Both the position numbers and the translations under genes were made by a program. A stretch of DNA of 64,000 bases from Candidatus Omnitrophota bacterium (GTDB taxonomy: Bacteria > Omnitrophota > Gorgyraeia > Zapsychrales > JBAZNR01): the NCBI GenBank assembly GCA_041649175.1, contig JBAZNR010000001.1, forward strand, positions 514,332-578,331, given 5' to 3'. Every line of letters starts with the position of its first letter. Position 1 is the stretch's first letter. Shown here in pieces: positions 6,666-40,012 of this stretch. The notes beneath the pieces are model-generated. The model was not told the DNA's origin. It was given only the letters and a program-made list of their open reading frames with translations, and did not search any database.

Positions 6666-7991
6666 ATGAGACGAGTGATCAGTATTTTTATTTTAGGTGT
6701 TTTCTTGTTAGGGAACGCATCGCCAAGTTTTGCGGGGGCAACATCGGTTGATGCTTTGATCCGTAAATTAGTGGACAAAAAAATCTTAAGCAAAGAGGAA
6801 GCATTAGAGCTAAAAAGCGAGATTGCGGCCGACGAAAAAATGGTACGCGCGGAAGGTTTGAAAACCGATCTGCCGTCTTGGGTTAAAGATATGAAGCTCA
6901 AAGGGGATTTGCGCGTGCGTTATCAAAATGAACGGCGCGATTCGACTCAAAGCCGCAATAGAGGAAGAATCCGTATGCGCTTAGGGCTAGAAACAAAAGC
7001 CAATGATAAAGTTCAGCTTGGTGTTGGGATCGCGACAGGTTCCGGTGATCCTCGCTCCACTAATGAGACGAGTGAAAATTCTTTTGAGAAAATGGATCTT
7101 CGCCTCGATTATGCTTACGCTAAATATATGCCGACCACATGGGCGTCTATCACCGGTGGTAAAATGTTGAGCCCGTTCTGGACTCCAAAAGATTTGCTGG
7201 TCGACAGCGATATTTCTTATGACGGCGGTTCTGTAAATCTGACATCAAAAAAGTTTCTCAACGATCAGGTAGATTTCTTTCTTAATACAGGCTTTTTTAT
7301 TATGGATGAAGGTAATGGGGCGAGTACTTTAACAACAGAAAACTTCGATCCCTATTTATATGTTATCCAACCCGGCCTTAATATCAAGCCAACGGCAAAT
7401 ACAAAGCTTAAATTAGCTGCGACCTATTTTGGAATAGATAATATTAGAGGACAACGGCGTTTACAATATTCCGCCAGTACAAATACGACCAGGGCCTGTA
7501 CGGACGCTTCCGGCGCGGCACAAAGCTGTTATGCTCATGACTTTGAACCGGTCAGCGGAGGTATGGAGTTTACGATTGATAGCCCATTTGGGAATAATGG
7601 ATTTTTTAATGATATAGGATTTGACCAGATCGCTTTTCTGGGCGAATACGTAAAAAATGTGGCTGATATGGTTGATGAGCATAATGATGGTTATTTATTG
7701 GGAGCTAGAATTGGCGCTAAAAAAGTTTCTGGCCCTAGGCAATGGCAATTAGGTTATAATTTCCGTCGCTTAGAAAGAAACGCGTTTTTGGACAATTTAC
7801 CGGATTCTGACTTTTACGGTGGTGGAACGCATGTCCAAGGCCATGAAGTAGAATTTGCTTATGGTTTATCAAAGAATGTCAGCCTTAATCTTGATTATTA
7901 CCGCGCGGCGCCTATTGGCGGAGAAGAAATCGATACGCGCCAAGCAAAAGTTGAGAATATCATTCAGGCCGATCTTAACTTTAAATTCTAA
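6666..7991 (+). CDS. Outer-membrane porin, probably phosphate-selective (OprO/OprP-like)
   Basis: Signal peptide (ASPSFAGA) and a beta-barrel-like alternating pattern. C-terminal ...DLNFKF ends in Phe. Lies immediately upstream of pstS in the pho cluster. Confidence 0.6.
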   Translation: MRRVISIFILGVFLLGNASPSFAGATSVDALIRKLVDKKILSKEEALELKSEIAADEKMVRAEGLKTDLPSWVKDMKLKGDLRVRYQNERRDSTQSRNRGRIRMRLGLETKANDKVQLGVGIATGSGDPRSTNETSENSFEKMDLRLDYAYAKYMPTTWASITGGKMLSPFWTPKDLLVDSDISYDGGSVNLTSKKFLNDQVDFFLNTGFFIMDEGNGASTLTTENFDPYLYVIQPGLNIKPTANTKLKLAATYFGIDNIRGQRRLQYSASTNTTRACTDASGAAQSCYAHDFEPVSGGMEFTIDSPFGNNGFFNDIGFDQIAFLGEYVKNVADMVDEHNDGYLLGARIGAKKVSGPRQWQLGYNFRRLERNAFLDNLPDSDFYGGGTHVQGHEVEFAYGLSKNVSLNLDYYRAAPIGGEEIDTRQAKVENIIQADLNFKF

Positions 7992-8029
7992 AATAGAAAA
8001 TTTATTTATAAAAACATAAGGGAGGAAAT

Positions 8030-8941
8030 ATGAAAAACGTTTTAAAGATATTCTTATTATCTGTTGTGAGCTTCTTAAGTTGCCAAGCATTTGTTTTGGC
8101 CGCGGAGCCTATTAAAGCGGACGGTTCTAGCACAGTTTTCCCTATTACCGAAGCAGTCGCCGAAGAATTTGGTAAAAAAGGCGGTGCTAAAGCCATGGTG
8201 GGAATTTCGGGAACCGGAGGCGGATTTAAACGATTTTGCCGCGGTGAAACTGATATCAGCAATGCCTCGCGTCCTATCAAATCAAAAGAAGTGGATGCTT
8301 GTAAAGAAGGCGGAGTTTCCTATATTGAATTGGAAGTCGCCTATGACGGGTTAGCCGTTGTTGTTAATCCTCAAAATAATTGGGTTGATTACTTAACAGT
8401 GGCTGAACTTAAAACGATTTGGGAAACCTCAGCTCAGGGTATTGTTACGCGTTGGAGCCAAGTGCGTTCTAGTTTTCCGGACGAAGAAATACAGCTTTTT
8501 GGCCCCGGGACTGATTCAGGGACCTTTGATTATTTCACAGAAGTGATTAACGGAAAATCCGGCGCCAGCCGCGGCGATTATACGGCCAGCGAAGACGATA
8601 ATGTCTTAGTGGAAGGCGTTGCCAACAGCAAAGGCGGTTTAGGGTATTTTGGTGTTGCCTATTATGAAGCCAATAAAGATAAGATCAAGGTTGTTCCGGT
8701 CAAAGGGCCGAGTAATTCCAGCGGAGTTGTTCCCACAAAAGAAACTGTTTTAGACGGAACGTATGCGCCGCTATCGAGGCCGATATTTATTTATGTGAAC
8801 AAAGATTCTTTAGCGAAAAAACCAGCGGTCAAAGCATTTGTTGAATTTTATCTGCAAAATGCTTCCGTTTTGTCCGAGGAGGTCGGGTATATTCCTTTGG
8901 CACAGAGTAAATATGACGCGGATCTTATGAAAATAAAATAA
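8030..8941 (+). CDS. pstS: Phosphate ABC transporter substrate-binding protein
   Basis: Signal peptide and the PstS family motif [16 protein letters not shown]...GTGGGF. Confidence 0.9.
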
Positions 8942-8979
8942 TCCTTTTCTTTTTTAGGTTTATTTTTTAAACTGGATGC

Positions 8980-9876
8980 ATGTTGTTTAAGAAAAAAGTT
9001 AGTAAATTCAAGGAAGCTCTGGTCGAGAGGCTGCTATTTTGTTGCAGCCTCTTGTCCGTGTTAACGACCGCCGGGATTATTTATGTCCTTCTTTCGGAAT
9101 CCATCGGGTTTTTTAAAGAAGTTTCTCTTTTTAAATTTCTTACCGACACCCAATGGACACCGCTTTTTGTTGATAAGCACTTTGGAATTCTCTCATTATT
9201 ATGCGGAACGATCGTGACAACCGTCATCGCGATCGCTGTTGCCGTTCCTTTAGGGCTGATAAGTGCGGTTTACTTAAGCGAATATGCCTCACAAAAATCC
9301 AGAGTCATCATTAAGCCTATCTTGGAGATATTGGCGGCTGTTCCAACGGTTGTTTATGGATATTTCGCGCTTTTATTTGTAACACCGCTTTTACGAAAAT
9401 TAATTCCCGGATTACCGGGATTTAATGCTCTTTCTGCCGGGCTTGTTATGGGGATCATGATCATTCCGCTGGTTTCTTCGCTCAGTGAAGACGCCATGCA
9501 TGCGGTTCCTACGGGACTGCGCGAAGGCGCGTATGCGCTAGGATCGCATAAGATCCAAGTAGCATTTAAGATCGTTTTTCCTGCGGCGCTTTCGGGGATC
9601 AGCGCGGCGGTTATTTTAGCGATGTCGCGCGCTATTGGGGAAACCATGATCGTGGCGATTGCCGCCGGTCAGCAGCCCAGGCTAACACTTAATCCGTTGG
9701 TCCCTATTGAAACGATCACGGCGTATATCGTTCAGGTGAGTTTGGGTGATACGCCGCACGGGACTTTGGAATACAGGACGATCTTTGTTTGCGGGATGAC
9801 ACTTTTTCTTCTGACATTTTTCTTAAATGTGATCAGTTTTAAATTACGACGACGTTTTCAGGAAGTTTATGAATAA
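8980..9876 (+). CDS. pstC: Phosphate ABC transporter permease
   Basis: Multi-TM protein with an EAA-like loop ([24 protein letters not shown]). Confidence 0.9.
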
Positions 9877-10771
9877 AAAACAGTTTGATAAAAAAGTTGA
9901 TGCCAGCTTTAGCACGGTCGGGTTGATGGCGACTTTTTTTGGCTTGATCGTTTTAGCGGTTCTTGTTATCGATGTTTTTATGGACGGCTACAAGCGTTTG
10001 AGCTGGGATTTTTTTATGAATTATCCGTCGCGCAAACCTGAACAAGCCGGAATTCTTTCAGCTTGGGTAGGGACTCTTTGGATCATGGTCACTACCGCTC
10101 TTTTGGCGATTCCCTTAGGGGTTGGGTCTGGGATTTATTTGGAAGAATATGCCCGGCGTAACCGCTGGACAGATTTTATTGAGATCAATATTGCGAATTT
10201 AGCAGGCGTTCCCTCGGTTATTTACGGCATTTTAGGCCTAGGCCTTTTTGTGCGCATGATGCATTTAGACCGTAGTGTTTTAGCCGGGGGGCTTATTTTG
10301 GCCTTGCTTGTTTTACCGGTTATTATTTTATCAACACGTGAGGCCTTACGCAGTGTTCCTCATTCTATCAGAGAAGCTTCTTATGCCTTAGGAGCTACCA
10401 AATGGCAAACGGTGCGTTTTCAAGTTCTTCCGGCCGGATTTGGCAGTATTTTAACCGGAATTATTTTAGCGATGTCGCGCGCCATCGGAGAAACAGCGCC
10501 TCTGATCACCATAGGCGCCCTGACGTATATTCCATTTTTACCGTCGCCTCCGGTTTCTTTTTCAAAAGATCTTCCGTTTGTCAATGTGACGCTCAAAGGG
10601 TTCTTTGAGCCTTTTACGGTTTTACCGATCCAGATCTTTAATTGGGTTTCTCGTCCGCAAAAAGGATTTCTTATTAATGCCGCGGCGGGAATTATTGTTT
10701 TGCTGGCGATCACGCTGGCTATGAACGGATTCGCTATTTACCTTCGTTATAAAAATCAGAAAAGGTGGTAA
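9869..10771 (+). CDS. pstA: Phosphate ABC transporter permease
   Basis: Multi-TM protein with an EAA motif ([43 protein letters not shown]). Overlaps pstC by 8 nt. Confidence 0.9.
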
Positions 10772-10774
10772 GTT

Positions 10775-11533
10775 ATGTCGTCGATCGTTTTGCAAGTTAA
10801 AAATTTGGATTCTTATTACGGAAAGAAACAAGTTTTAAAAGATATTACGTTAGATATCCAGGAAAGATCCGTAACGGCCCTTATGGGGCCTTCGGGCTGC
10901 GGGAAAAGCACACTCATTCGCTGTTTTAACCGCATGAATGACCTGGTTTCTAAGTTCCATCTGAAAGGAAAGATCCTTTATAAAGGAGATGATCTTTATT
11001 CAAAAGATATTGATGTAACCGACCTAAGGCGAGAGATCGGCATGGTTTTTCAAAAACCTAATCCATTTCCGAAAAGTATTTTTGAGAATATTGTTTATGG
11101 GATGAAGATCCAGGGAGTTAGCGATCAAGAGTACATTCATTCTACCGTCGAAGAAGTTTTAAAGAAAGCCGCTTTGTGGGACGAGGTGAGCGACCGGCTG
11201 CATGAATCGGCGCTGTCACTTTCCGGCGGACAACAACAAAGGCTCTGCATCGCTCGGGCTTTAGCCGTTAAGCCGAAGGTCATTTTATTTGATGAGCCAT
11301 GTTCGGCGCTTGACCCTATTGCCACGGCAAAGATTGAAGAACTGATCGCGGAATTAAAAAAGAGCTACACCATCGTTGTGGTCACGCATAATACCGCTCA
11401 GGCGGCGCGTATTTCTGATTTTACGGCCTTTTTATACTTAGGGGAATTGATCGAATACGGTATTACCGATAAAATGTTTACCGCGCCCGATAATAAACGC
11501 ACCGAAGAATATTTAACCGGGAAATTTGGTTAA
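10775..11533 (+). CDS. pstB: Phosphate ABC transporter ATP-binding protein
   Basis: Walker [13 protein letters not shown] signature LSGGQQQRL and Walker B ILFDEP. Confidence 0.95.
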
Positions 11534-11573
11534 GTTGATAAAATAGCAGTTGTCATTTACGAAAGGGAAACCG

Positions 11574-12248
11574 ATGCAAAGACATTTCGATGAAGAATTA
11601 GCCGATCTCAAGCAAGATATTTTAAAGATGGGAACGATGGTCGAAGAGGCTATTTTCCAATCTGTGGAATCGCTCAAACAATTAAGCGTCGAGAATGCCA
11701 AGCGTGTTATCGCGGATGATCAATTGGTGGATGAATTAGAATTAAAAATAGAACAAAGATGCCTTGATCTCTTGGCTTTGCGCCAGCCAATGGCCTCCGA
11801 CTTAAGATTTATTACCATGGCCATGAAGATCACCAATGAGCTTGAGCGCATGGCGGATCTGGCGGTTGATATTGCTCAAAGAGTTTTAGGATTAACGGAT
11901 AAACCTCTTTTGAAGCCGTTAGTGGATATCCCTAAGTTAACAAAGATCGCCCAAAATATGACCCGGGATGTTATTAACGCATTCATTAATAAAGATATTG
12001 AGCTGGCCAAGCAAGTTATTTTTACCGATCCCGAAGCCGACAAGCTGCGTAATTTTGTTCAGGAAGAATTGATCAATGATTTTATGGCCAAAGACCCGGA
12101 AACGGCAACTAGGGCTGTTCCGCTTTTATTGATCGCGCGCCACTTGGAGCGTATTTGTGATCACGCGACGAATATCGCCGAGGATGTCATCTATATCACA
12201 TCAGCGAAAGTCGTAAAACATCATCCCGAAGAATTGCAAGGGCATTGA
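11574..12248 (+). CDS. phoU: Phosphate transport system regulator PhoU
   Basis: PhoU two-repeat helical protein (ALRQPMASDLRFI...ELERMADLAVDIA; RHLERICDHATNIAE). The likely start is the internal ATG with RBS gaaaggga; the longer ORF begins at 11550. Confidence 0.85.
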   Translation: MQRHFDEELADLKQDILKMGTMVEEAIFQSVESLKQLSVENAKRVIADDQLVDELELKIEQRCLDLLALRQPMASDLRFITMAMKITNELERMADLAVDIAQRVLGLTDKPLLKPLVDIPKLTKIAQNMTRDVINAFINKDIELAKQVIFTDPEADKLRNFVQEELINDFMAKDPETATRAVPLLLIARHLERICDHATNIAEDVIYITSAKVVKHHPEELQGH

Positions 12249-12760: not shown

Positions 12761-12908
12761 GCCAAAGTTCTCTCTCAATATTCTTAAGAAATACGAAAAT
12801 TCTCTTGTTTCGCCTCTGAGACGACACTAAAATGATTTTATAGAATAGAAAAGCAGCGTTTTTATCTGAAAAATATTTTAGGATATTAAAACATAATTGC
12901 CCGCGGCT

Positions 12909-14387
12909 ATGACAAGAACCTTAAAGATCTTTCTTCTTTTTATTTTTGCATCATCCGGTTTCTGTCCCTTACTGTATGCTCAAGGGCAAGACAGCCTTTA
13001 TCTTCGCGCGCCTAAGATCAGCCAAGAAACAAAAACCGTAAAACAAAATTCCATCCAGAAAACTGATTCCGCCAATCCGCTTCAACCCGTTGAAACAAAA
13101 GAATATTATGATTCCGGAGAATTAAAAGCGAGTTATCTGTATCAAAACGGCAAGAAAAACGGCCCGGCCAAAACGTATTTTAAAAACGGCACTGTTAATG
13201 ATGAAGTCATTTATAAAAATGATAAACTCAACGGCAGTGCCCGCAAGTATTATGAAAACGGTATTCTTCATCAAGAGGCGTTTTTTAAAAATGGGGTCCT
13301 GGAAGGAAAAGGAAAGATTTATGACAGCAAAGGCCAATTAGCGGAAGAATATGTTTATAAAAAAGGAAAGCCAATTATTCCTCGAGGGAAACAAGAAGTT
13401 AAAAAAAGTGAGCCGCCAAAAGTAGTCGAAAAGAAAGAGCAGGAAAGATCCGATATGGATTCGGGCCTTTCCCCTGAAGAAGAAACAGCGCTTGTCTTAC
13501 GCGCTCCTCGGTCCGGAACGCAAAGTGAGCCGGAATTCTTTTATTTGCGTTCACCGGGATGGGCGGGAGCCCCGGGGTCAGAAAGCAAAAAAGAAGAAGA
13601 AACGGTGAAGAAAGAAGAAGCTTCGCCGTGGGAATTTGAAGCCGGATATGAAACCTCGCAAATCGTTTATAAAGAACCAACCGTTATGCGCCAATCCGGC
13701 TATATGCAGGGAGTATTTTTTTCTGTGACGCATCGCCCCAAATATCTTCAGATCAAAAGCTTGACGTATGAACCGTGGCTTAATATGTTCCGCTATGATT
13801 TTCGTTACGCGTTCGGCGAAATGTATTACAAGGGCCGGCTTTCCAACGGAACGCCTTATAATGTCGACGATATTCCGGATTATATGATAGAAACACGTCT
13901 GGTGGCTGGACATGAATTTGAGGAATTTGACCCAGCTAAATTAGCTTTATACTTTGGCTTGGGATATCGCTATCTTAATGATGATATGTCGATCGATCCT
14001 GCCGGCTATGAGCGTGAGTCGAATTATGTTTATATCCCGGTTGGTGTAGAGTATATGAAGCCTACAAAAGACGATTGGTGGTACGGAGGAATGTTGGAAT
14101 TTGACGGCCTTGTCGGCGGATGGCAGATCAGCCATGTCAGCAATGTGAACCCCGGTTACGGTGACTTAACAAATAATCAAACAAAGGGGTTTGGGGGAAA
14201 ATTTTCTCTTCGTCTGCAAAAAAAGGCTCAAGACCTGGATTTTCTTCTAGAACCTTATTATCGATATTGGTATATGGCTGATTCTGAATTAACACCCTGG
14301 CTTTTAAACGGCGTTTCGATCGGTTCCGGCCTGGAGCCTCGCAATCATTCCAATGAATACGGCGTAAGGTTCATTGCCCGCTTTTAA
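12909..14387 (+). CDS. Secreted MORN-repeat protein with a C-terminal beta-barrel-like domain
   Basis: Signal peptide (MTRTLKIFLLFIFASSGFCPLLYAQG). Three or four MORN/YwqK-type repeats (YYDSGELKASYLYQNGKKNG..., YFKNGTVNDEVIYKNDKLNG..., YYENGILHQEAFFKNGVLEG...). A Lys/Glu-rich linker, then a C-terminal region rich in aromatic-alternating strands ending ...RFIARF. Confidence 0.6.
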   Translation: MTRTLKIFLLFIFASSGFCPLLYAQGQDSLYLRAPKISQETKTVKQNSIQKTDSANPLQPVETKEYYDSGELKASYLYQNGKKNGPAKTYFKNGTVNDEVIYKNDKLNGSARKYYENGILHQEAFFKNGVLEGKGKIYDSKGQLAEEYVYKKGKPIIPRGKQEVKKSEPPKVVEKKEQERSDMDSGLSPEEETALVLRAPRSGTQSEPEFFYLRSPGWAGAPGSESKKEEETVKKEEASPWEFEAGYETSQIVYKEPTVMRQSGYMQGVFFSVTHRPKYLQIKSLTYEPWLNMFRYDFRYAFGEMYYKGRLSNGTPYNVDDIPDYMIETRLVAGHEFEEFDPAKLALYFGLGYRYLNDDMSIDPAGYERESNYVYIPVGVEYMKPTKDDWWYGGMLEFDGLVGGWQISHVSNVNPGYGDLTNNQTKGFGGKFSLRLQKKAQDLDFLLEPYYRYWYMADSELTPWLLNGVSIGSGLEPRNHSNEYGVRFIARF

Positions 14388-15269: not shown

Positions 15270-18200
15270 ATGCTTAGTTATATAGAACGCAGAAAAGACA
15301 ATATGTCTTTTAGGCTTATTTCTTTCTTTGTCTTGATCACTTTTGTCGCCAGCCTTGTTACTCCGCCCATGGGCTACGCACAAAGTTTTAATATCAACTT
15401 ACCCGTTCCGGGAACCATGCTTCTTCCCAGTCCTGTCTTTACGCCGCCTTTACTTCGTGGCATTGAAATTGACCCTGAAAATCCGCTTCATTTTGGTTTT
15501 ATTATGCACGGCGGCGACCAAAAGGTTAAAGGCGAAGAGCTGAAAAAAGAAGCTATGCAATCCATCAAGTACTTTTTAGCCGCCCTCACCATTCCAGAAA
15601 AAGACCTCTGGGTCAACCTTTCTCCATACGAAAAAGGGCGCATTGTTCCCGAAAAATTAGGTTTAACCGACTTAGGCCGCGACCTTTTAGGCCAAGATTA
15701 TCTTTTAAAACAACTGGCCGCGTCTCTTATATATCCCGAAAACGATCTAGGCAAGAAATTCTGGGATAAAGTCTACAAAAAAGCTTTCGATCTGTATGGC
15801 ACAACAGAAATCCCCATCAATACTTTCAACAAAGTCTGGATCGTTCCTGAGAAGGCAACTGTTCTTGAAACCAACGGCATGGCCATTGTCGCCGACAGCC
15901 ATTTAAAGGTTTTGTTGGAAGAAGATTATCTGGCGGTTAAAAACAATCTTTCCAACACCGAAAAAGGTACGGATATTTTAGAAGCCGCCAAAGTGAAAGA
16001 ATTAAGCCGCGTAACCTCACCGGTTGTGCGCGAAGTCATCATTCCGGCTATTGAAGAAGAAGTCAATGAAGGAAAAAACTTTGCTTTGTTGCGCCAAATC
16101 ACCAATGCCGTTATTTTGGCCACTTGGTACAAAAAAGCTTTAAAAGAAAGTTTATTAGGCAAAATCTATGTGGATAAAAGCAAGGTTTTAGGAATTAACC
16201 TTGAAGATACATCCGCTAAAGAAAAGATTTACGAGCAATATTTAGCCGCCTTCAAGCAAGGCGTCTACAACTATATTAAAGAAGACTATGACCCCAATAC
16301 TCAAGAAACCATTGAACGCAAATATATTTCCGGTGGGTACGGGACGGAATTAAATGGTATTCCTCTCTCTCAAAGGGTTGAGATTGCCGAAACAGTCTCC
16401 CAACTGCCCGCTGATGCCAGAAACGATGTGGCAAAACTTGTTTCCGAGCCAACCACTGTTACAAATTTTGATACTAATTTAACCGAACCTAATGAACCTC
16501 CTTCTCCTCTATCCAACAAAAAAGATGCAGGTATGGTCAGAAGCCTTTTGTCTGCCGTTACAGATTTTATGAATCAAAAAAGATTTGAACGTATTCGCCG
16601 TACTTGGTCAGCAAAAGATATTGCGGATCTATTGGGACGAGAAGTAGCTGTCGCAGAACCAAAATTTTCTAATTATTTAGCGGATAAGTTATTTGCAGCA
16701 ATGAAAATAGCCCAAGATAATAAATCGTTTATCGCGACCGGTGGTGTTATGGATGGCCCATCGGCAGCGGCGATGGCGGAAGCCGGACATACGGCGCTTT
16801 ATTTCAGCGGCTGGCAAGCTTCCAATCATTGGGGAGGGCCGGATTTAGCCAAGTACCCTTATGACGTTATTGCCAAGAATATAAAAGAAATCTATAAGTT
16901 CTTAGTAAATAAGGATCAAGATCAGCAAATTCGTATGCGTGCGATGTCAAATAAATTAGAAACACTTATGTCGAGGGTGTTCACAACTATACACGAAAAA
17001 GACAGTCTTGAAATAGAACAACAGAAAGATAAGTGGGTTGAAGAATTTATTAGTATTATTAAAAGCGATGACGCGATCTTTATCAACGATCTTCGCTATA
17101 ATCCTAAACTTATTTCTGAGTACGCGGAAGCTCTTATTACTGATGCGATCGCTCAAAAAGGAAAATTAGATCAAAAGATGAGGGATGGTATCCGCGATGG
17201 TATGTTTGGTTTCTTAAGCACGCACCTGGTAGATTATCTTATCCCTATTTTTGCCGATGGTGATACCGGACATCAAGCCGTTAAAGAAATGGTCAAGCTT
17301 TATGTTGAGGCTGGTGCTGCGGCTATTCACTTAGAAGATCAGGCGCATGGCTTAAAGAAATGTGGGCACATGGCAGGAAAAGTTTTGGTATCAACCCGTG
17401 AGCATCTCATGAGATTGCTTAATGCCAGGCAACAGGCCGATGAATTGTTCTCTAGAATTATGATCATTGCCCGTACCGACGCCGAAGCTGCCAATCTTTT
17501 AGCAACCAACGAAGACCCCGTTGACCATTATTTTATTACCGGAACGACCAACCAAAATCTTCCTTCTTTGTCCTATGTGATCCGCCTAGCTCGTCGAGAA
17601 GTGGCCGAATTTGATAAGAGAGCAAAAAATGATGATCTTATCGCTGAAATCCGAAAACTTATTCCCGGGATCAAGGACGGAGAATTGGAAGACATCCTTT
17701 CGCCTAAAACTCCGGAGCAATTGGTAGATGAATTATCTCAGAAATCTCCGGATATTGCTGCTGCCATACAAAAGGTATGGGCTTTACGCGGAGAAGTTAA
17801 CGGCCAACGATTAGAGCCAAACGATGAATTGTTTACCGAGCACGATAATTTTCCGATGACAGCTGGCTGGCTTTGGGATAATGCGGAATCGATTAGATTT
17901 AATGAAAACGATCTTATTAAGCTCAGCACAATTCTTAAGGCTCAAGACGGAAGCACAATGACCGTTGAAGAAGTTTTAAATCGTAAGCCCGCTAAAATTG
18001 CCGATGAAGTCAAAGCCATGGAAGCCTTAACCGAAACATGGGGCCAAAAAGCCGGCTTAAAGACGTATGGTGAAGCAGTCGTTGAATCTTTAAGTCAAAG
18101 TACGATTGAGAACAAGGAACAACTTATTGCGCAATGGAAAGAAGCAACAGATCCTCTTAAAAATACCCTTTCCCATGATCAATTAAAAGCTTTGGCTAAG

Positions 18201-21200
18201 AAATTCGGCGTTGAAATTAATTGGGATGCCGAAAAAGCCAGAACCTACGAAGGCTATTATCAATTGAACAAAAAATTGGGGGCAACGTTTGCCGCGGTCA
18301 GACAAAGGATCTTTGCTACCATTGCCGATAGTAGCTGGATGGAACAGGAAAAACCCGACGTCAAACAAGCAAAAATTTTTGTAGATAATGTTAATGCCGA
18401 TCCGAAGGCAAAAGGCGTTCTTTTTTCCATTAATCTTTCACCTTCTTTTAATTGGCTTAATCCGGATAACTGGAAATCGTCATTAACCGCGCAACAAATC
18501 GCCAATGTCAAAAAAGCCATGCAGTTTGGTAATTTTGATTGGAGCAATTGGGAGACATGGCGTGAATATCGTCCGGATGTTATGGCTATGCTTGACGCCA
18601 TTATGGAATTTAGCAGTGAAATGGGCAAGGCAGGTTTTAGTTTCCAATTTGTGACGATCTTTCAAGATCATATCAGCACACTGGCGATGTTTCAGGCTGG
18701 AAAAAGGCTTAAAGAATCCGGTGCCGGCGGTTTTGTTATGGTCGGGCAAGCTGAAGAGCAAAAACACCGTTCTCGTTTCTTAGAACATCAAGCGGCGGCC
18801 GGTGTCAAACGCGTTGGCGCTCAGGATAATTTAGTCGCGCGCGGTTCATCGGCAACGGGTGCGACCGGTAAGGGCGATACCATGGCGCAGTTTCAACCAG
18901 CTACTCCAAAAGCCGACAAAGGCCATGTGGTGACATTAACACCTCCGGAACAAGACAGATTGAACAAGCTTTCGGTTACATTTCCGGTTGACTTAGTCAA
19001 TAAAACAGCCGCGCAATTGACGGCTTTAGGATTACGCGGTGCCTTAAAGCGTGTTAATGATATTTTAAAGAAAGAAGGCGTTGACGCCGAACAAAAGCTT
19101 CTATCGCTTAATCTTCTTTTTTCTGATCTTTATCAAAGAACAGGTAAGGAAGAAATTGAAGCGGTTGTAGCGATGTTAGCCCAAAGACAAATTTCACCAA
19201 ACGCGTCAGAAATTCTCACCAAAGAAGAATTATCCAAGATCAGCCGCGCTATTAAAGATACCGCCGATGCCATGGCTAAACGCATCTTCCAGAAAATTTC
19301 GGAAGACGAAGGCATTATTTTAATGGTACGGGTGAGTGAAGGTTTTGGGCGCGATGAAGTCGCGGAAAGTTTTAAATCCAATGAAGTTATTGTGCCTTTG
19401 AATCTTAAAGGAGAGATCAATCGTATCTATGATGCGGTTGTGACTGGAAGCGATGTTTATCGCTCTGAAACCGACCAAAAAGTATATCCGATCGTTAATG
19501 CTGTTATCGATGTGATCGAAGGAACAAATATGTTCGTGACTAATTCTAACGATCATACGACATCCAGCATCAAGGATTCCGAATCGGGTTCTACCAGCGT
19601 GATCGTGACCGGGCCAGGCGTTGCCAGTTTAGGCAATGCGCCCGACGGTTACGTGGGACAATTTGAAACCAATTTGGGCGACAAGGCCGATGAATTCAAA
19701 CAAATTAAAGTCAGTGTCAAGGGCCAAGACTACGCGCTTTATGATCCCGAGCTTTATGCGGTGGCTCCGGAAATGGTCATTGAATACTTGAAATTTCTAG
19801 CTCGCAGCCGCAATCAATTGTTAAGCGATTTACAAGAAGAAATTGTGGTCATGGATCGTGTCCGCGAAGAAAAACTATTGCAGGCCTTGAAAAGCGCCAA
19901 AGAAACGTTCAATATTCAAGGTTTGAAAGTTACTACCATCAAGGATGGAACGGTGGCTCACGGCCTTAAGGCTTCTATGACGCCGGAAATGTTTAAACAA
20001 GCGACAGGGCAAGAGTATGGTGTTCATAAAACCATGATCACCATTGGCGGTTCGGCGGAAGGGTTTATGAATTTAGCCATCGCCGGTGGATTAAAGGCAA
20101 GCGGTGCTGTCGGAGCTTTACGCATTTATAGCGGTAAGATGAATAAAGACGACGATGGAGTGGAAGTTGATGACCACTCACTGCGTTATAGTTTTTGGTC
20201 TGATGAGATTGAAGATATTGTCATGTTGCGCGATGATGCTCAAGATGTTTTGGGTGGAGAGAAATTATTTACTCAAGCGGATGTTCAAGGTAGCGTGATG
20301 GGAGCTTTTTCGTTTATCAGCACCAACGGTGTTTTTGGCATAGAAGGCGCTACGTCTTCGGAAGAAGGAACAAGCGTCAAAACACTTATTATCAATGCGC
20401 TTGGGTCAACCCCGACTATTTCTATTACACAAACTGAAGTCACTCCCGCCGACCTCGCGATCTTCAGCGATAAAAAAGACGCGGGGCATGTGGTGATGCT
20501 GGAAACCGGAGACAAAACAGCCTTGGTTAGCCGTATTGATCCGGAATTAGGCAATGTTTTTGAAGCGTATGGAGACATTTTAACGCCGCAAGTGGTTCAG
20601 GTTTTAGAAAAAATTGCTCCACTAAGCGAAGAATTATCTGTTTTACGAGAGATCCGTGAAACACGTTATGTGGATCGCCAAATTAATCGTAAGAAAATCG
20701 ATTTCTTATCCGAAACAAATTCCGATGGATCAGATGCCGTTATTCCGGGAACAAATATTACGGTTAAAGATGCCAGAGCGGGAAAATTTGAAGGCGCTCC
20801 TATTCCGGCTGACCTACAGCGTCAATGGATCCAGCTAACCGGCCCCGCCGCTAAATCTCCGCAGGACAAGATCGGATTTTCAAAAGAACAATGGACTGAG
20901 GCTGATTTGCGCAATGTTGCCCATGCTCTTTTAAGCGGAGCGGACGGCATGATGTTCGACGGCGAAGATGCCTTAGGGCAATTGGGCACGATGTCTTTGG
21001 ACAATATTCGCGCTTTAACTTTGGCTTACAAGAAAGACCCGGTTTTCCTAAAAATAGCCGAAGAGGTTGCTAATGAATATATCAAAGCCGGAAAAAGGGA
21101 TGCGAGTTGGAATTGGAGAGAACTGATCGATAATAATTTCACAACCCGCATTTATCGTGTTCGCGGATTGCATTTAGATGACCGGCATACGCAGTTTAAG

Positions 21201-35169: not shown

Positions 35170-37353
35170 ATGGGAAAATCAACAAGGCTCCAGGAGATTC
35201 AGGCTTTAGCGAATCTTAACGGAGGAAATTCGTTGGAGGAAAAAATGATTAATGAATTATCTGAAGTAAAGAGTAACCATTCCGTCGCCGATCTTTACGG
35301 CAAAGATGTTTTTAGTCTTAAGGTGATGTGTAATTGTTTGTCAGAAAAGGCTTTTAAATCAATTAGTGCAACCATGAAAGAAGGCGGCCGCCTTGACCCT
35401 ACTATTGCCGATGAAGTTGCTGAGGCAATGAAAAATTGGGCTGTTTCAAAAGGGGCAACACATTTTACGCATTGGTTTCAGCCTTTGACCGGCACTACCG
35501 CCGAAAAACATGATGCCTTTATTGATCCAGATGGAGAAGGCGGAACTGTTCTGAAATTTTCTGGCAAAGAGTTGATCCAAGGTGAGCCCGACGCATCAAG
35601 CTTTCCCTCAGGTGGTTTACGCGCCACATTTGAAGCCCGCGGTTATACAGGCTGGGATCCAACGTCCCCCGCCTTTATTAAAAAAGGGCCGGAAGGTGCC
35701 ACACTTTGTATTCCAACTTTTTATATCGGCTACCATGGCGAAGCGTTAGACAAAAAAACACCTCTCCTTCGTTCCATGACAGCTCTTTCAAAACAAGTTT
35801 GTCGTCTGGCGAATTTGTTTGGCATTGAGATTAAAGGGAAACGTGCTTATTGCACGCTTGGCCCCGAACAGGAATATTTTCTAATCGATAAAAATCATTA
35901 TGAAGCTCGTATTGATTTAGTTCAGACCGGCCGCACACTTTTTGGTTCCAAACCGGCCAAACATCAACAACAAGAAGATCATTATTTTGGCGCCGTTAAA
36001 CCGCGCGTGATGGCTTTCATGGAAGACTTGGACCGCACATTATGGGGTTTAGGTATTCCTTCCAAAACACGCCACAACGAAGTTGCTCCCGCGCAATATG
36101 AAATGGCTCCGATCTTTGAAGATCTTAACGTCGGCGTTGATCACAATATGATTGCGATGGAAGTGATGCGCCAACTGGCTGACAAACACGGCTTGGTTTG
36201 TTTGTTGCACGAAAAACCTTTTGCCGGTATTAATGGCTCTGGAAAACATAATAACTGGTCTATTGTTGGCCCCGATGGAAAGAATTGGCTCTATCCTGGT
36301 AAAACACCGCACGATAATGCAAAATTTTTAACCCTGCTCTGTGCGGTTATTAAAGCTGTCGATACGTATGCTGATCTTTTGCGCGTCACGGTTGCTTCTG
36401 CCGGTAACGATCATCGTCTGGGTGCTAACGAAGCGCCGCCGGCGATTGTTTCAATTTTCTTAGGCGATCAATTGACGGATATCATTGAGCAGATCGAAAA
36501 GGGCGGCGCCAAAACATCCAAACAAGGAAGCGCTATTAACATCGGCGTTGATTCTATGCCAAACCTTGCCAAAGATACAACGGATCGTAATCGTACATCA
36601 CCTTTTGCATTTACGGGTGCGAAATTCGAATTCCGCGCGGTTGGTTCCAATATGAACCCTTCCGCCGCCAACATGGTTTTAAATACCATTGTGGCCGAAG
36701 CAATTAGTGATATCTGCAATGAACTCGAAACAGCCAAAAAATCCGGTAAGGATTTTAACGCTTCTTTGCAAAAAATTCTGCAAAGCATTATCAAAAATCA
36801 CAAACGTGTTCTCTATAATGGCGATAACTATGTTCCGGAATGGCATGCTGAAGCTAAAAAACGCGGGCTGCCGAATTTCAAATCGACCCCGGAAGCTCTG
36901 GAAGCCATCAAACTCAAAAAGAACATCGCGGTTTTGGTGAAGCATGGCGTTTTGAGCGAAAAAGAACTTGCGTCGCGTTATGAAATTAACAAACACGCTT
37001 ATGCAACGGTGATTGACCTCGAGGGAAATTGCGCGCTTTCAATGGCCCGTACGCAATTAATTCCTGCGGCGGTTGAATATCAAAAAGAGCTCTCCGAAAC
37101 GATTAAGACCGTCGGAGCAAGCGGCAAAACCACATCCCAGAAAAAGGTTTTAAAAACCATTTCCGGGTTGATTGACGAAGCCTTTGCAACTTGCGATACG
37201 TTGGAAGCGGCAATTCATAAACATGATTCTGCCAAAACCAACGCGGCGATGGTTGAGCTTCGTGAATCCATTGATGCGCTGGAAGGTTTTGTCCCGAGCA
37301 ATATCTGGCCGGTACCGTCCTACGCAGAAATGCTTCTGATGAATGCGCTTTAA
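35170..37353 (+). CDS. glnN: Glutamine synthetase type III
   Basis: At 727 aa the length and architecture are typical of GSIII. Catalytic-domain-like blocks are present (e.g. FGIEIKGKRAYCTLGPEQEYFLID). Confidence 0.8.
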   Translation: MGKSTRLQEIQALANLNGGNSLEEKMINELSEVKSNHSVADLYGKDVFSLKVMCNCLSEKAFKSISATMKEGGRLDPTIADEVAEAMKNWAVSKGATHFTHWFQPLTGTTAEKHDAFIDPDGEGGTVLKFSGKELIQGEPDASSFPSGGLRATFEARGYTGWDPTSPAFIKKGPEGATLCIPTFYIGYHGEALDKKTPLLRSMTALSKQVCRLANLFGIEIKGKRAYCTLGPEQEYFLIDKNHYEARIDLVQTGRTLFGSKPAKHQQQEDHYFGAVKPRVMAFMEDLDRTLWGLGIPSKTRHNEVAPAQYEMAPIFEDLNVGVDHNMIAMEVMRQLADKHGLVCLLHEKPFAGINGSGKHNNWSIVGPDGKNWLYPGKTPHDNAKFLTLLCAVIKAVDTYADLLRVTVASAGNDHRLGANEAPPAIVSIFLGDQLTDIIEQIEKGGAKTSKQGSAINIGVDSMPNLAKDTTDRNRTSPFAFTGAKFEFRAVGSNMNPSAANMVLNTIVAEAISDICNELETAKKSGKDFNASLQKILQSIIKNHKRVLYNGDNYVPEWHAEAKKRGLPNFKSTPEALEAIKLKKNIAVLVKHGVLSEKELASRYEINKHAYATVIDLEGNCALSMARTQLIPAAVEYQKELSETIKTVGASGKTTSQKKVLKTISGLIDEAFATCDTLEAAIHKHDSAKTNAAMVELRESIDALEGFVPSNIWPVPSYAEMLLMNAL

Positions 37354-37383
37354 TTAGCGCTTTACGCAGTTATTAAAAGCGAA

Positions 37384-37416
37384 GGGAAAAGGGGCGCGAA
37401 CCGCGCCCCTTTTCCC
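37384..37416 (+). terminator. Terminator-like hairpin after glnN
   Basis: gggaaaaggggcgcg-aacc-gcgccccttttccc. Confidence 0.55.
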
Positions 37417-37449
37417 TAGTCAATATTTACAATAGGTAGTATAATCCTT

Positions 37450-38139
37450 ATGATTTTGATCATTAAACATATTGCTGTGGAAGGGCCGGGGACCATTGCG
37501 TCGTTCTTTCAAAAGAAGAAAACACTAAAAACAATTGAGCTTAGCGCTGGCGATCCGTTACCTCGCGACCTAAAAGGCGTTGAGGCCGTGATCGTCATGG
37601 GCGGCCCGATGAATGTTGACGAAGAAGACAAATATCCGTTTCTTAGAGATGAAAATATTTTTATCCAGAACGTCTTAAAGAAAGAAATTCCGTATTTGGG
37701 TATTTGTTTGGGAAGTCAGCTTTTAGCCAAGGCCTCCGGAGCGAAAGTTGCCAAGTCACCGGTAGAAGAGATTGGCTGGTTTAAGGTTTCTTTAGAGAAA
37801 GATCCGATCTTTGAGAATTTAGAAAACAATATTGATGTTTTTCAGTGGCATGGGGATACATTCGATATTCCCAAGAGTGGAAAACTTTTAGCGACGGCCA
37901 CCGGATGCCATCATCAAGCGCTAAAAGTAGGAACAAATGCTTACGGACTTCAATTTCATGTTGAAGTAACGGGCAGGATCATTGATAGCTGGATAAAAGC
38001 ACATTTTAAAGGCGACACGCGAAAACAAAAATCAGAAGAAATGATAAGCACTTATTTAAAACTCAAAAGTGCTTTTAATAGAAATGCAGAAACTGTGTAC
38101 CAGAATTTTGAAAAGATTATTGAGCAAAGTAAGCAGTAA
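37450..38139 (+). CDS. Class I glutamine amidotransferase-like protein
   Basis: GATase1 triad context: GICLGSQLL (Cys nucleophile) and ...LQFHVEV (His). Confidence 0.7.
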   Translation: MILIIKHIAVEGPGTIASFFQKKKTLKTIELSAGDPLPRDLKGVEAVIVMGGPMNVDEEDKYPFLRDENIFIQNVLKKEIPYLGICLGSQLLAKASGAKVAKSPVEEIGWFKVSLEKDPIFENLENNIDVFQWHGDTFDIPKSGKLLATATGCHHQALKVGTNAYGLQFHVEVTGRIIDSWIKAHFKGDTRKQKSEEMISTYLKLKSAFNRNAETVYQNFEKIIEQSKQ

Positions 38140-38174
38140 GTAAAATTTTTTTAAATGAATCTGCCTAAAGATTA

Positions 38175-38228
38175 GGCAAATTCTTCTGCCTCTTTATATT
38201 CTTTCTTGACTCGCAGAAGAATTTGCCT
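38175..38228 (+). promoter_or_regulatory. 15-bp perfect inverted repeat (GGCAAATTCTTCTGC ... GCAGAAGAATTTGCC) upstream of nadE
   Basis: Seen directly. A 22-nt loop contains ttgact. Candidate operator or RNA element. Confidence 0.3.
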
Positions 38229-39996: not shown

Positions 39997-40012
39997 TGGA
40001 GAGATTATTCTT

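What the first reader, a model, noticed from the sequence alone, without database searches (positions are those of the whole stretch)
19170..20640. GlpX-like bisphosphatase domain inserted between ICL and malate synthase
Collinear blocks matching E. coli GlpX sit between the two glyoxylate-shunt domains: AVDIAVDPIEGT ~ [11 protein letters not shown]; FAIPDGDVA ~ TTIKDGTVA; GIGGAPEG ~ TIGGSAEG; FSATGITKGDLLEG ~ [14 protein letters not shown]. Several insertions are present, including a DDDGVEVDD acidic loop. A class II FBPase embedded in a glyoxylate-cycle fusion suggests a hard-wired gluconeogenic module, or a repurposed phosphatase.
Basis: partly seen in the sequence, partly recalled or inferred. 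Interest (0 to 1): 0.6.

Follow-up and report, generated by a model that had tools for sequence, protein, structure and literature searches.

The report
Divergent GlpX-type phosphatase in Omnitrophota multi-enzyme protein
The flagged stretch is a real but very divergent relative of the GlpX sugar-bisphosphate phosphatase, one of four metabolic enzymes strung together in a 2950-residue protein of an uncultured Omnitrophota bacterium, and hundreds of such enzyme strings share the same unexplained head and tail modules.

Summary
Window 18996-20435 (aa 1243-1722 of one 2950-aa ORF, 15270-24122, + strand) encodes a domain homologous to class II fructose-1,6-bisphosphatase (GlpX). Direct family models barely detect it: PF03320 gives E 2e-4, below the curated cut-off, on a core fragment only. 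Relatives 38-46% identical do pass PF03320. A profile-profile comparison with GlpX gives 98.7% probability, E 2e-16, over 258 columns. The top 17 structural matches in the PDB are all class II FBPases.

All metal ligands, the Thr nucleophile and the R-x-R phosphate clamp are kept. The conserved IxDGD motif reads IxDGT throughout this small clade. The clade is repeatedly fused to FBP aldolase, TPI, PEPCK and PPDK, so FBPase activity is the likeliest function, though untested.

The domain order is signal/anchor helix + N-module, ICL, GlpX-like, malate synthase, SerC, C-tail. More than 1000 Omnitrophota proteins share this N-module, and 116 of the 120 long relatives checked also carry the tail, with shuffled central-metabolism cassettes in between. 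Multi-enzyme long proteins in Omnitrophota, including FBPase domains, are already reported.

Verdict: a new variant of a known kind, of moderate interest.

The parts
15270..24122 (+). Single 2950-aa ORF encoding the multi-enzyme protein. It is identical to NCBI MFA5059370.1, which is annotated only as a phosphoserine transaminase from a Candidatus Omnitrophota MAG.
15303..15359 (+). The only hydrophobic segment of the protein (aa 12-30, [19 protein letters not shown]). It is followed by PPMGYA|Q, which looks like a Sec signal peptide or an N-terminal membrane anchor.
   Evidence: Kyte-Doolittle scan, single peak; cleavage site inferred from sequence
15270..16589 (+). Omnitrophota-specific N-module (aa 1-440). 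Conserved motifs: [23 protein letters not shown], RKYxSGG. No Pfam, NCBIfam or PDB relative was found.
16518..16538 (+). Junction motif KKDAGMV at the N-module|ICL border.
16590..18989 (+). Isocitrate lyase domain (aa 441-1240). It is long, with insertions, and carries the KKCGH catalytic motif at nt 17355-17369.
18909..18932 (+). Junction motif KADKGHVV at the ICL|GlpX-like border.
18996..20435 (+). GlpX-like (class II FBPase-type) domain, aa 1243-1722. This is the subject of the finding.
19251..19268 (+). IKDTAD: K1329 and D1333 align with E. coli GlpX K29 and D33.
19332..19355 (+). VSEGFGRD: E1357 aligns with E57, the M1 metal ligand in the GEGE loop.
   Evidence: PMC10289334
19509..19526 (+). 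DVIEGT: D1414 and E1417 align with the M1 ligands D85 and E88. T1419 aligns with the T90 nucleophile.
   Evidence: PMC10289334
19635..19652 (+). NAPDGY: D1459 aligns with the M2 ligand D117 (D116 in F. tularensis). Y1461 aligns with Y119, which contacts the 6-phosphate.
   Evidence: PMC10289334
19854..19868 (+). DRVRE: R1530-x-R1532 aligns with the (R/K)-P-R clamp for the 6-phosphate.
   Evidence: PMC10289334
19938..19952 (+). IKDGT: D1559 aligns with D186. T1561 replaces D188 of the 'strictly conserved' IxDGD motif. The Thr is invariant across the clade.
   Evidence: PMC10289334
20046..20063 (+). GGSAEG: E1597 aligns with the M2 ligand E213.
20472..20495 (+). Junction motif KKDAGHVV at the GlpX-like|MS border.
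20547..22529 (+). Malate synthase A-type domain (aa 1760-2420). RGLHL, GRWDY and MEDMAT motifs are present.
22587..23789 (+). Phosphoserine aminotransferase (SerC) domain (aa 2440-2840). The AQKNFG motif around the PLP-binding lysine is present.
23802..24119 (+). Conserved C-tail (aa 2845-2950): [53 protein letters not shown], followed by an acidic end.

Best explanation
Window 18996-20435 encodes a genuine but strongly diverged class-II-FBPase (GlpX-fold) domain. It is one cassette of a 2950-aa Omnitrophota multi-enzyme protein with the order: signal/anchor + N-module, isocitrate lyase, GlpX-like, malate synthase, SerC, C-tail.

Shown:
- Homology to GlpX.
- Retention of both metal sites (E1357, D1414, E1417; D1459, E1597).
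- Retention of the Thr nucleophile (T1419) and the R-x-R 6-phosphate clamp (R1530, R1532).
- Membership of a small clade (about 110 representatives among 1.84 billion) that has clade-specific insertions, reads IxDGT instead of IxDGD, and is nearly always fused to other central-carbon enzymes, most often class II FBP aldolase.

Inferred: the domain is an active metal-dependent sugar-1,6-bisphosphate 1-phosphatase, most likely FBP to F6P. It would supply the irreversible gluconeogenic step. In this protein it sits alongside the two glyoxylate-shunt enzymes (C2 to C4) and SerC (3-PG to serine branch).

The juxtaposition arose by cassette shuffling at short junction motifs (K[KA]D[AK]G[MH]V here; DAAML or GDNALLG in relatives), between a phylum-specific N-module and C-tail. 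The roles of those two modules (export, anchoring, assembly or processing) are unknown.
For: Homology:
- Relatives at 38-55% identity, E 1e-57 to 1e-133; eight of the ten returned carry PF03320.
- 9 of the 11 aligned sequences hit PF03320, best E 2.9e-13.
- The clade profile hits PDB class II FBPases 3roj, 5a5l, 7js3, 3d1r and 6ayy at E 3e-7 to 7e-4.
- hhalign against E. coli GlpX alone gives 95% probability, E 3e-8. Against three canonical GlpX sequences it gives 98.7%, E 2.2e-16, 258 columns covering GlpX residues 29-289.
- Direct PF03320 hit on the core fragment, E 2.1e-4.
- Foldseek top 17 PDB hits are all class II FBPases, followed by a sharp drop to E > 0.1.

Catalytic residues: mapped against the roles given in PMC10289334. 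They are invariant or nearly so across 17 clade members.

Functional association:
- 7 of 8 mid-length clade members tested carry class II FBP aldolase; at least 15 representatives do.
- Fusions with FBA-II+TPI, PEPCK, PPDK+FBA-I, PGM, PGK and GAPDH.
- Stand-alone P0005 lies in a GAPDH...PPDK-DeoC-type aldolase-GlpX-like cluster.
- ICL/MS/GlpX-like co-occur again in P0143 and P0286, in other orders.

Neighbouring domains look intact: KKCGH, RGLHL/GRWDY/MEDMAT, AQKNFG.

Cassette system: the N-module has more than 1345 protein hits and at least 572 genomic loci. 116 of 120 long relatives carry both the N-module and the tail at their termini. Junction motifs lie at every border around the GlpX-like cassette.
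Against: - No enzymology exists for any member of this clade.
- The whole domain gives no Pfam or NCBIfam hit, and the core fragment scores below Pfam's gathering cut-off.
- The second Asp of IxDGD, described as strictly conserved and as binding the furanose hydroxyls (PMC10289334), is Thr in the whole clade. Sugar specificity could therefore differ.
- The AF2 model is of low confidence (pLDDT 53), so the fold match is only supportive.
- The only hydrophobic segment looks like a Sec signal peptide. If the protein is exported, a gluconeogenic role in the cytoplasm makes no sense.
It is validated only indirectly: 42% identity to P0351, which hits PF03320 at E 6e-103, plus agreement with independent PDB hits.
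Confidence: 0.7

Rival explanations
1. Repurposed phosphatase. The domain is catalytically active but works on a substrate other than FBP, for example sedoheptulose-1,7-bisphosphate, another sugar bisphosphate, or a phosphorylated intermediate unrelated to gluconeogenesis. The cause would be remodelling of the sugar-binding site (D188 to T, plus several clade-specific insertions).
For: IxDGT replaces IxDGD in every clade member. The best PDB profile hits are the dual FBP/SBPases 3roj and 5a5l. The domain is about 150 residues longer than GlpX through conserved insertions. Canonical GlpX is only marginally reached by the clade profile in a library-wide search (P0351, E 6.7e-4).
Against: The R-x-R clamp and the Tyr for the distal phosphate are kept, as are both metal sites and the Thr nucleophile. 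The recurrent fusion partner is FBP aldolase, whose product is FBP. Thr can still hydrogen-bond a sugar hydroxyl (inference).
Confidence: 0.2
2. Non-catalytic domain. The GlpX-like fold is retained as a structural, oligomerising or ligand-sensing (FBP-binding regulatory) spacer within the multi-enzyme chain.
For: The sequence is very divergent. It is embedded in proteins that also carry scaffolding content such as HEAT repeats and receiver domains. One clade member (P0152) reads IKAGT, having lost the first Asp.
Against: Twelve of 13 mapped catalytic or ligand positions are conserved, and are invariant or at least 90% conserved across 17 members at about 48% mean identity. That pattern points to selection on catalysis.
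Confidence: 0.06
3. Artefact. The giant ORF would be a mis-assembly or a run-together of adjacent genes, so that 'insertion between ICL and MS' is not a real protein architecture.
For: The sequence comes from a MAG. Four normally separate enzymes lie in one frame.
Against: The reading frame is uninterrupted for 8.85 kb with even base composition. The identical protein appears in the protein collection under NCBI, JGI/IMG, ENA and Logan, on a 1.23-Mb contig. The N-module occurs only at the N-terminus and the tail only at the C-terminus in 116 of 120 long relatives from many assemblies. Junction motifs lie at the domain borders.
Confidence: 0.02
4. Chance similarity. The motif blocks are coincidental and the region is not homologous to GlpX.
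For: Pairwise BLASTP against E. coli GlpX gives only E 0.024. phmmer against PDB finds nothing. There is no whole-domain Pfam hit.
Against: hhalign E 2.2e-16, transitive PF03320 hits, and Foldseek top 17 hits all class II FBPases.
Confidence: 0.01

Closest known systems
Class II fructose-1,6-bisphosphatases (GlpX of E. coli, M. tuberculosis and F. tularensis; PF03320; PDB 3d1r, 6ayy, 7js3)
   Same: Homologous fold. Same M1 site (E57, D85, E88), M2 site (D117, E213), Thr90 nucleophile in the D-x-I-E-G-T helix cap, and Tyr119 plus the basic-x-Arg clamp for the 6-phosphate. The motifs are collinear (PMC10289334).
   Different: About 480 aa instead of about 320-345, through at least five clade-specific insertions. 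IxDGT replaces the strictly conserved IxDGD, and P165 is replaced by V. It scores below the Pfam gathering cut-off. It is never seen here as a plain stand-alone 330-aa enzyme; it is usually embedded in multi-enzyme chains. Activity is untested.
Cyanobacterial dual FBP/SBPase (class II; Synechocystis 3roj/3rpl, Thermosynechococcus 5a5l)
   Same: These are the best-scoring solved relatives by sequence profile and by Foldseek. They show that the class II scaffold can accept both FBP and SBP.
   Different: No Calvin-cycle context here. Sequence identity is only about 13-16% in structural alignments.
Bifunctional FBP aldolase/phosphatase (class V FBPase of archaea and deep-branching bacteria; recalled from own knowledge, Say and Fuchs 2010)
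   Same: Functional logic only. Aldolase and FBP phosphatase activities are tied together in one polypeptide to make gluconeogenesis unidirectional. The GlpX-like clade is recurrently fused to class II FBP aldolase.
   Different: Class V uses one active site and an unrelated fold. Here two separate homologous domains (PF01116 and GlpX-like) are fused. In the window protein no aldolase domain is present.
Bifunctional glyoxylate-cycle protein ICL-MS of nematodes and Euglena (recalled from own knowledge)
   Same: Isocitrate lyase and malate synthase in one polypeptide.
   Different: The fusions are independent. In Omnitrophota both orders occur (ICL-MS and MS-ICL), extra cassettes can sit between or beside them, and the chain is bracketed by the N-module and tail.
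Omnitrophota long 'multi-enzyme metabolic cluster' proteins and Archaeovorins (West-Roberts et al., bioRxiv 10.1101/2023.11.21.568195; bioRxiv 10.64898/2026.06.07.730766)
   Same: Same phylum and same phenomenon: TPI, PGI, FBPase, PGM, FBA and PPDK domains inside long proteins that carry signal peptides or TM helices, with localisation unresolved.
   Different: Those studies focus on much longer proteins (a 916-protein long-protein catalogue with a ≥10,000-aa class, and giants of ≥30,000 aa). In the passages I read they do not describe the shared N-module, the C-tail or the junction motifs. The 2026 preprint reports ICL and malate synthase as absent from all 176 of its complete genomes, whereas this MAG and at least 19 related proteins carry them as fusion cassettes.

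Membership tests
Class II FBPase (GlpX, PF03320) | Scores above the curated family-model threshold (Pfam gathering score 27 bits; NCBIfam equivalents) | tested here: not met
   The whole protein and the whole domain give no PF03320 or NCBIfam hit. The 217-aa core gives 20.7 bits, E 2.1e-4, below the cut-off.
Class II FBPase (GlpX, PF03320) | Demonstrable homology to the family by profile-profile or transitive search | tested here: met
   hhalign 98.7%, E 2.2e-16, 258 columns. 9 of the 11 aligned sequences pass PF03320. The PDB profile search hits only class II FBPases at E ≤ 0.001.
Class II FBPase (GlpX, PF03320) | High-affinity metal site M1: Glu of the GEGE loop plus Asp and Glu/Asp of DP[IL][ED]GT | tested here: met
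   E1357, D1414 and E1417 align with E57, D85 and E88. They are invariant in the clade. Roles are from PMC10289334.
Class II FBPase (GlpX, PF03320) | Catalytic Thr (T90 in E. coli, T84 in M. tuberculosis, T89 in F. tularensis) at the start of the helix after DPxEG | tested here: met
   T1419 in DVIEGT is invariant in the clade.
Class II FBPase (GlpX, PF03320) | Second metal site M2 (Asp of APDxY plus Glu of GGAPEG) and the Tyr that contacts the 6-phosphate | tested here: met
   D1459, Y1461 and E1597 are invariant in the clade (PMC10289334).
Class II FBPase (GlpX, PF03320) | (Arg/Lys)-Pro-Arg clamp for the 6-phosphate | tested here: met
   R1530-V-R1532 is present and both Arg are invariant. 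The Pro is replaced.
Class II FBPase (GlpX, PF03320) | Strictly conserved IxDGD motif that binds the furanose hydroxyls | tested here: not met
   The motif reads IKDGT (D1559 kept, D188 equivalent is T1561). The Thr is invariant in all 17 clade members (motif definition in PMC10289334).
Class II FBPase (GlpX, PF03320) | GlpX two-domain alpha/beta fold | tested here: inconclusive
   The AF2 model has mean pLDDT 53. Even so, the top 17 Foldseek PDB hits are all class II FBPases (E 3.7e-6 to 5e-3, TM to target about 0.45-0.49), with the next hit at E > 0.1.
Class II FBPase (GlpX, PF03320) | Mn2+/Mg2+-dependent hydrolysis of FBP at C1; Li+ sensitivity | not testable with these tools
   Needs enzymology. 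The only indirect support is fusion and neighbourhood with FBA, TPI, PEPCK and PPDK.
Omnitrophota N-module/C-tail-bracketed multi-enzyme proteins (defined here) | Conserved N-module of about 350-400 aa, immediately after an N-terminal hydrophobic helix | tested here: met
   aa 1-440 are 50-63% identical to more than 1345 proteins. The N-module starts at median residue 4 in 119 of 120 long relatives.
Omnitrophota N-module/C-tail-bracketed multi-enzyme proteins (defined here) | C-terminal GGI[DN][LF]...IKRDG.G.PLP...GF.P[IV]I tail within about 50 residues of the C-terminus | tested here: met
   aa 2845-2950. The tail is present in 116 of 120 long relatives, ending at a median of 21 residues from the C-terminus.
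Omnitrophota N-module/C-tail-bracketed multi-enzyme proteins (defined here) | Variable central-metabolism enzyme cassettes between the two modules, separated by D-x-A-hydrophobic-hydrophobic junction motifs | tested here: met
   The four cassettes are ICL, GlpX-like, MS and Ser[16 protein letters not shown] and KKDAGHVV lie at three of the borders.
Isocitrate lyase / malate synthase A (flanking domains) | Family HMM hit plus catalytic signatures (ICL: KKCGH; MS: Arg of RGxHL, Asp of GRWDY, Asp of MEDxAT) | tested here: met
   PF00463 at E 9e-91, TIGR01346 above its cut-off, PF01274 at E 7e-48. The motifs were located. Motif roles are recalled from own knowledge.

The most novel reading that the evidence does not exclude
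The GlpX-like domain would be one cargo of a previously undescribed, phylum-specific protein-organising system. In this reading, a Sec-type signal or anchor helix, a roughly 350-aa N-module with no PDB or BFVD fold match in the two libraries available, and a roughly 65-aa C-tail bracket strings of otherwise cytoplasmic central-metabolic enzymes. The enzymes are separated by conserved D-x-A-hydrophobic-hydrophobic junction motifs.

The brackets would direct one or more of the following:
- export of the chain;
- tethering to the membrane;
- head-to-tail assembly, with the tail docking on the N-module;
- polyprotein-like processing at the junctions.

The consequence would be that Omnitrophota run glyoxylate-shunt and gluconeogenic chemistry in a tethered, possibly extracytoplasmic, metabolon rather than as free cytosolic enzymes.
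Probability: 0.3. Interest if true: 0.85.

Novelty: new variant of a known kind. Interest (0 to 1): 0.5.

Why it matters
1. Annotation. Standard family models miss this FBPase-type clade. The protein is named only 'phosphoserine transaminase' at NCBI. A 2026 survey scored ICL and malate synthase as absent from 176 complete Omnitrophota genomes. Metabolic reconstructions of this uncultured, host-dependent phylum may therefore undercount gluconeogenesis and the glyoxylate shunt when the enzymes are hidden inside fusion proteins.

2. Enzymology. A natural class II FBPase lineage with IxDGT in place of the 'strictly conserved' IxDGD, habitually fused to FBP aldolase, is a ready-made test of how that motif sets sugar specificity. 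It also offers a test of aldolase-to-phosphatase channelling.

3. Cell biology. Over a thousand proteins share the same signal/anchor + N-module, and the long relatives checked also share the tail, around shuffled cytoplasmic-type enzymes. That raises a directly testable question about where central metabolism takes place in these nanobacteria, and whether the chains are processed.

Tried and rejected
- Direct Pfam and NCBIfam scans of the whole protein and of the flagged segment gave no GlpX hit. Only a trimmed core gave a sub-threshold hit.
- Pairwise BLASTP against E. coli GlpX was marginal, E 0.024.
- phmmer of the segment against PDB sequences found only a spurious CodY match, E 0.23.
- AF2 with an 11-sequence alignment gave a poor model, pLDDT 53. 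It was used only as supporting evidence.
- The N-module + tail model (P0084, pLDDT 75.7) found no fold relative in PDB (best E 0.22) or BFVD (best E 0.97). The N-module profile found nothing meaningful in PDB sequences. The function of the brackets therefore remains open.
- A search of the window for a second N-module or tail protein found none.
- Literature searches for a prior description of the N-module/tail bracket or of ICL-FBPase-MS fusions in Omnitrophota found only general reports of multi-enzyme long proteins. The SpeD-fusion paper was irrelevant.
- I considered and rejected chance similarity, an assembly artefact, and a dead pseudo-enzyme as the main explanation (see the rival explanations).
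Full report
**1. What is at the coordinates**

The flagged interval 19170-20640 lies inside one uninterrupted + strand ORF, 15270-24122, encoding 2950 aa. Base composition is even across the ORF. Family scans of the whole protein find three enzymes:
- isocitrate lyase: PF00463 at E 9e-91, and TIGR01346 above its cut-off;
- malate synthase A-type: PF01274 at E 7e-48;
- phosphoserine aminotransferase: NF003764 at E 9e-106.

Nothing is found for aa 1-440, for about 1240-1760, or for the last 105 residues.

**2. Is the GlpX resemblance real?**

Direct tests are weak:
- no PF03320 or NCBIfam hit for the segment;
- BLASTP against E. coli GlpX gives E 0.024;
- phmmer against PDB finds nothing relevant.

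Indirect and profile tests are decisive:
- A search of 5.8 billion proteins returned ten relatives at 38-55% identity (E 1e-57 to 1e-133). Eight of them carry precomputed PF03320, and some are named 'fructose-bisphosphatase class II' by NCBI.
- 9 of the 11 aligned sequences hit PF03320, best E 2.9e-13.
- A profile of the alignment hits only class II FBPases in the PDB at E ≤ 0.001: 3roj, 5a5l, 7js3, 3d1r, 6ayy, at E 3e-7 to 7e-4.
- A 17-member domain alignment (A2) compared with E. coli GlpX gives 95% probability, E 3e-8.
- The same alignment compared with three canonical GlpX sequences gives 98.7%, E 2.2e-16, over 258 columns covering GlpX residues 29-289.
- Trimmed to its 217-aa core, the window sequence gives a direct PF03320 hit at E 2.1e-4. 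The score of 20.7 bits is below the 27-bit gathering score.
- The AF2 model is poor (pLDDT 53). Even so, its top 17 Foldseek PDB hits are all class II FBPases, followed by a drop to E > 0.1.

By HMM the domain is aa 1243-1722, which is window 18996-20435.

One caveat applies. It is 42% identical to P0351, a canonical GlpX that hits PF03320 at E 6e-103. Its numbering reproduces the published T90, Y119, R166 and E213.

**3. Catalytic residues**

Roles are taken from the F. tularensis, M. tuberculosis and E. coli structures (PMC10289334). The alignment maps the window protein onto E. coli GlpX as follows:

| Window residue(s) | GlpX equivalent | Role |
|---|---|---|
| K1329, D1333 | K29, D33 | conserved N-terminal helix residues |
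| E1357 | E57 | M1 metal site |
| D1414, E1417 | D85, E88 | M1 metal site |
| T1419 | T90 | nucleophile |
| D1459 | D117 | M2 metal site |
| Y1461 | Y119 | contact with the 6-phosphate |
| R1530-V-R1532 | K164-P-R166 | 6-phosphate clamp |
| D1559 | D186 | furanose hydroxyls (IxDGD motif) |
| T1561 | D188 | furanose hydroxyls; the only change |
| E1597 | E213 | M2 metal site |

All of these positions are invariant or at least 90% conserved across 17 clade members, whose mean column identity is about 48%. The only departure is the second Asp of the 'strictly conserved' IxDGD motif. It is Thr in every clade member. The pattern points to a working phosphatase with a slightly remodelled sugar pocket.

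**4. What the clade is and what it associates with**

A full HMMER pass with the clade profile over 1.84 billion representatives finds only 110 proteins at E ≤ 1e-3, and 69 at E ≤ 1e-30. Most are 1000-5600 aa long. Canonical GlpX appears only at the margin (P0351, E 6.7e-4).

Association with gluconeogenic enzymes is consistent:
- Seven of eight mid-length members scanned carry class II FBP aldolase next to the GlpX-like domain, in either order. At least 15 representatives do.
- In the long Omnitrophota proteins the domain co-occurs with FBA-II+TPI (P0147-9), PEPCK (P0150), PPDK+FBA-I (P0146), PGM (P0144), PGK (P0152), and TPI+FBA-I+GAPDH (P0155).
- The stand-alone member P0005, from a MAG labelled Patescibacteria, sits in a GAPDH...PPDK, DeoC-type aldolase, GlpX-like cluster.
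- ICL, MS and GlpX-like co-occur in at least two further proteins with different domain orders (P0143, P0286).

This guilt by association favours FBP as the substrate. It is the main reason I prefer 'FBPase' over 'repurposed phosphatase'.

**5. The larger object**

The whole protein is identical to NCBI MFA5059370.1, from a Candidatus Omnitrophota MAG contig of 1.23 Mb. NCBI names it only as a phosphoserine transaminase.

- *N-module.* Its first 440 residues match more than 1345 proteins at 48-63% identity. Those that carry a source name are labelled almost entirely Omnitrophota/Omnitrophica. Their downstream content varies widely.
- *Long relatives.* A whole-protein search returns more than 1500 relatives. 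The best 120 are 1600-5000 aa long and share the N-module. They carry shuffled sets of central-carbon enzymes: ICL+MS in both orders, with or without FBA, PEPCK, GAPDH, TPI, PPDK, PGM, UGPase, PGK and PGI. Receiver domains, HEAT repeats and others also occur.
- *Tail.* 116 of 120 also carry the tail GGI[DN][LF]..L.LQIKRDG.G.PLP..Q....I.GF.P[IV]I. It ends a median of 21 residues from the C-terminus, and the N-module starts at median residue 4.
- *Minimal members.* Some proteins consist of little more than N-module plus tail (P0084).
- *Genomic spread.* The N-module occurs in at least 572 loci of GTDB species representatives, several per genome.
- *Fold.* An AF2 model of P0084 is confident for both the N-module and the tail (pLDDT 75.7, pTM 0.75). 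It has no fold relative in PDB or BFVD.
- *Topology.* The window protein has a single hydrophobic segment, aa 12-30, followed by PPMGYA|Q. It reads as a Sec signal peptide or an N-terminal anchor.
- *Junction motifs.* KKDAGMV (aa 417-423), KADKGHVV (aa 1214-1221) and KKDAGHVV (aa 1735-1742) sit exactly at the N-module|ICL, ICL|GlpX-like and GlpX-like|MS borders. Relatives have DAAM[LTVA] (23-fold enriched), GDNA[FL]LG, D[KS]AML or [AS]SSPV at equivalent borders, often just before the tail.
- *Cassette insertion.* The closest ICL-MS relative, P0132, has ICL and MS joined by a single such motif. The GlpX-like cassette in the window therefore looks inserted at that junction, with the motif present on both sides (inference).

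**6. Mechanism**

Shown: a GlpX-fold domain with intact catalytic machinery, flanked by ICL, MS and SerC domains that appear intact (KKCGH, RGLHL/GRWDY/MEDMAT, AQKNFG).

Inferred: a metal-dependent FBP 1-phosphatase supplies the committed gluconeogenic step. It shares a chain with the two glyoxylate-shunt enzymes and with the aminotransferase of the serine branch.

The gene neighbourhood fits C2/C4 metabolism. Downstream lie sucC and sucD (24911-26913), a Pta-N-like protein and a thiolase. The pstSCAB-phoU genes lie upstream. The neighbouring enzymes are ordinary in size. That argues weakly for the giant protein's cassettes acting where acetyl-CoA and isocitrate are, namely on the cytoplasmic side.

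The signal-like N-terminus points the other way. The same conflict is noted in the literature for longer Omnitrophota proteins. I cannot resolve it with these tools.

**7. Comparison with what is known**

The domain works like a class II FBPase. It fails two membership tests: the curated HMM threshold and the IxDGD motif. I therefore file it as a divergent GlpX-like sister clade rather than as a plain GlpX.

Multi-enzyme long proteins in Omnitrophota that contain TPI, PGI, FBPase, PGM, FBA and PPDK domains have been reported (bioRxiv 10.1101/2023.11.21.568195). 'Multi-enzyme metabolic clusters' is a named class in bioRxiv 10.64898/2026.06.07.730766.

In the text I searched, neither preprint describes the shared N-module, the tail or the junction motifs. 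The second one reports ICL and aceB in 0 of 176 complete genomes. ICL and MS cassettes are clearly present in this MAG, and ICL matches 19 and MS 14 of the 250 proteins fetched up.

ICL-MS fusions in nematodes and Euglena, and the class V FBP aldolase/phosphatase, are functional analogies recalled from my own knowledge. They are not relatives.

**8. Verdict**

- The domain is a new variant of a known enzyme kind, embedded in a known but poorly understood kind of Omnitrophota multi-enzyme protein.
- Interest is moderate (0.5). The residue-level result is solid, but the function is untested.
- The more intriguing feature is the N-module/tail/junction bracket, which lies outside the original finding and remains unexplained.

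Noticed in passing
window 15270-16589 and 23802-24119: An N-module of about 400 aa (after a single hydrophobic helix) and a C-tail of about 65 aa (GGINLD...[11 protein letters not shown]...GFLPVII) bracket the enzyme cassettes. The N-module matches more than 1345 proteins, and 116 of 120 long relatives also carry the tail. There are several per genome. Neither module is in Pfam or NCBIfam, and the fold has no PDB or BFVD match. In an AF2 model of a minimal member (P0084), both the N-module and the tail are predicted confidently, which suggests they may dock on each other.
   Followed up: partly
window 16518-16538, 18909-18932, 20472-20495: Near-identical short motifs ([23 protein letters not shown]) sit exactly at three domain borders. 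Relatives use DAAM[LTVA], GDNA[FL]LG, D[KS]AML or [AS]SSPV at equivalent borders and just before the tail. They could be recombination scars of cassette shuffling, linker signatures, or polyprotein cleavage sites.
   Followed up: partly
window 22587-23789: A complete SerC (phosphoserine aminotransferase) domain is fused after malate synthase. The NCBI record names the whole 2950-aa protein after this domain alone, which hides the ICL, the malate synthase and the GlpX-like domain.
   Followed up: partly
window 16590-18989 and 20547-22529: ICL and malate synthase occur in this Omnitrophota MAG and in a good number of related fusion proteins (ICL in 19 and MS in 14 of the 250 proteins mapped). 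A 2026 preprint scored both as absent from all 176 of its complete Omnitrophota genomes. Either the two differ by lineage or KO-based calling misses the fused forms.
   Followed up: partly
window 16590-18989: The ICL domain is about 800 aa long and matches the 526-position Pfam model in four separate stretches. It therefore carries large insertions, reminiscent of long ICL isoforms.
   Followed up: no
window 24245-29949: The genes downstream are a small peptidoglycan-binding protein, sucC, sucD, an AAA_26+DRTGG (Pta N-terminal-like) protein and a thiolase. This is an acetyl-CoA/succinate neighbourhood that fits a glyoxylate-shunt role. These are ordinary-sized, unfused proteins.
   Followed up: partly
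window 6666-12248: Upstream lie a putative porin (Porin_5) and a pstS-pstC-pstA-pstB-phoU phosphate-uptake operon. A MORN-repeat protein is at 12897-14387.
   Followed up: no
window 35170-54475: Further downstream is a run of nitrogen and carbon assimilation genes: glutamine synthetase type III, glutamate synthase large subunit (1512 aa), a second Glu_synthase-domain protein, and carbamoyl-phosphate synthase large subunit. All are unfused and of normal size.
   Followed up: no
L001 2639-7290 (GCA_024239015.1, MAG labelled Patescibacteria): A stand-alone GlpX-like clade member lies directly after PPDK and a DeoC-type aldolase, with GAPDH nearby. Clade members outside the bracketed family are often fused to class II FBP aldolase (P0003, P0255-P0275).
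   Followed up: partly
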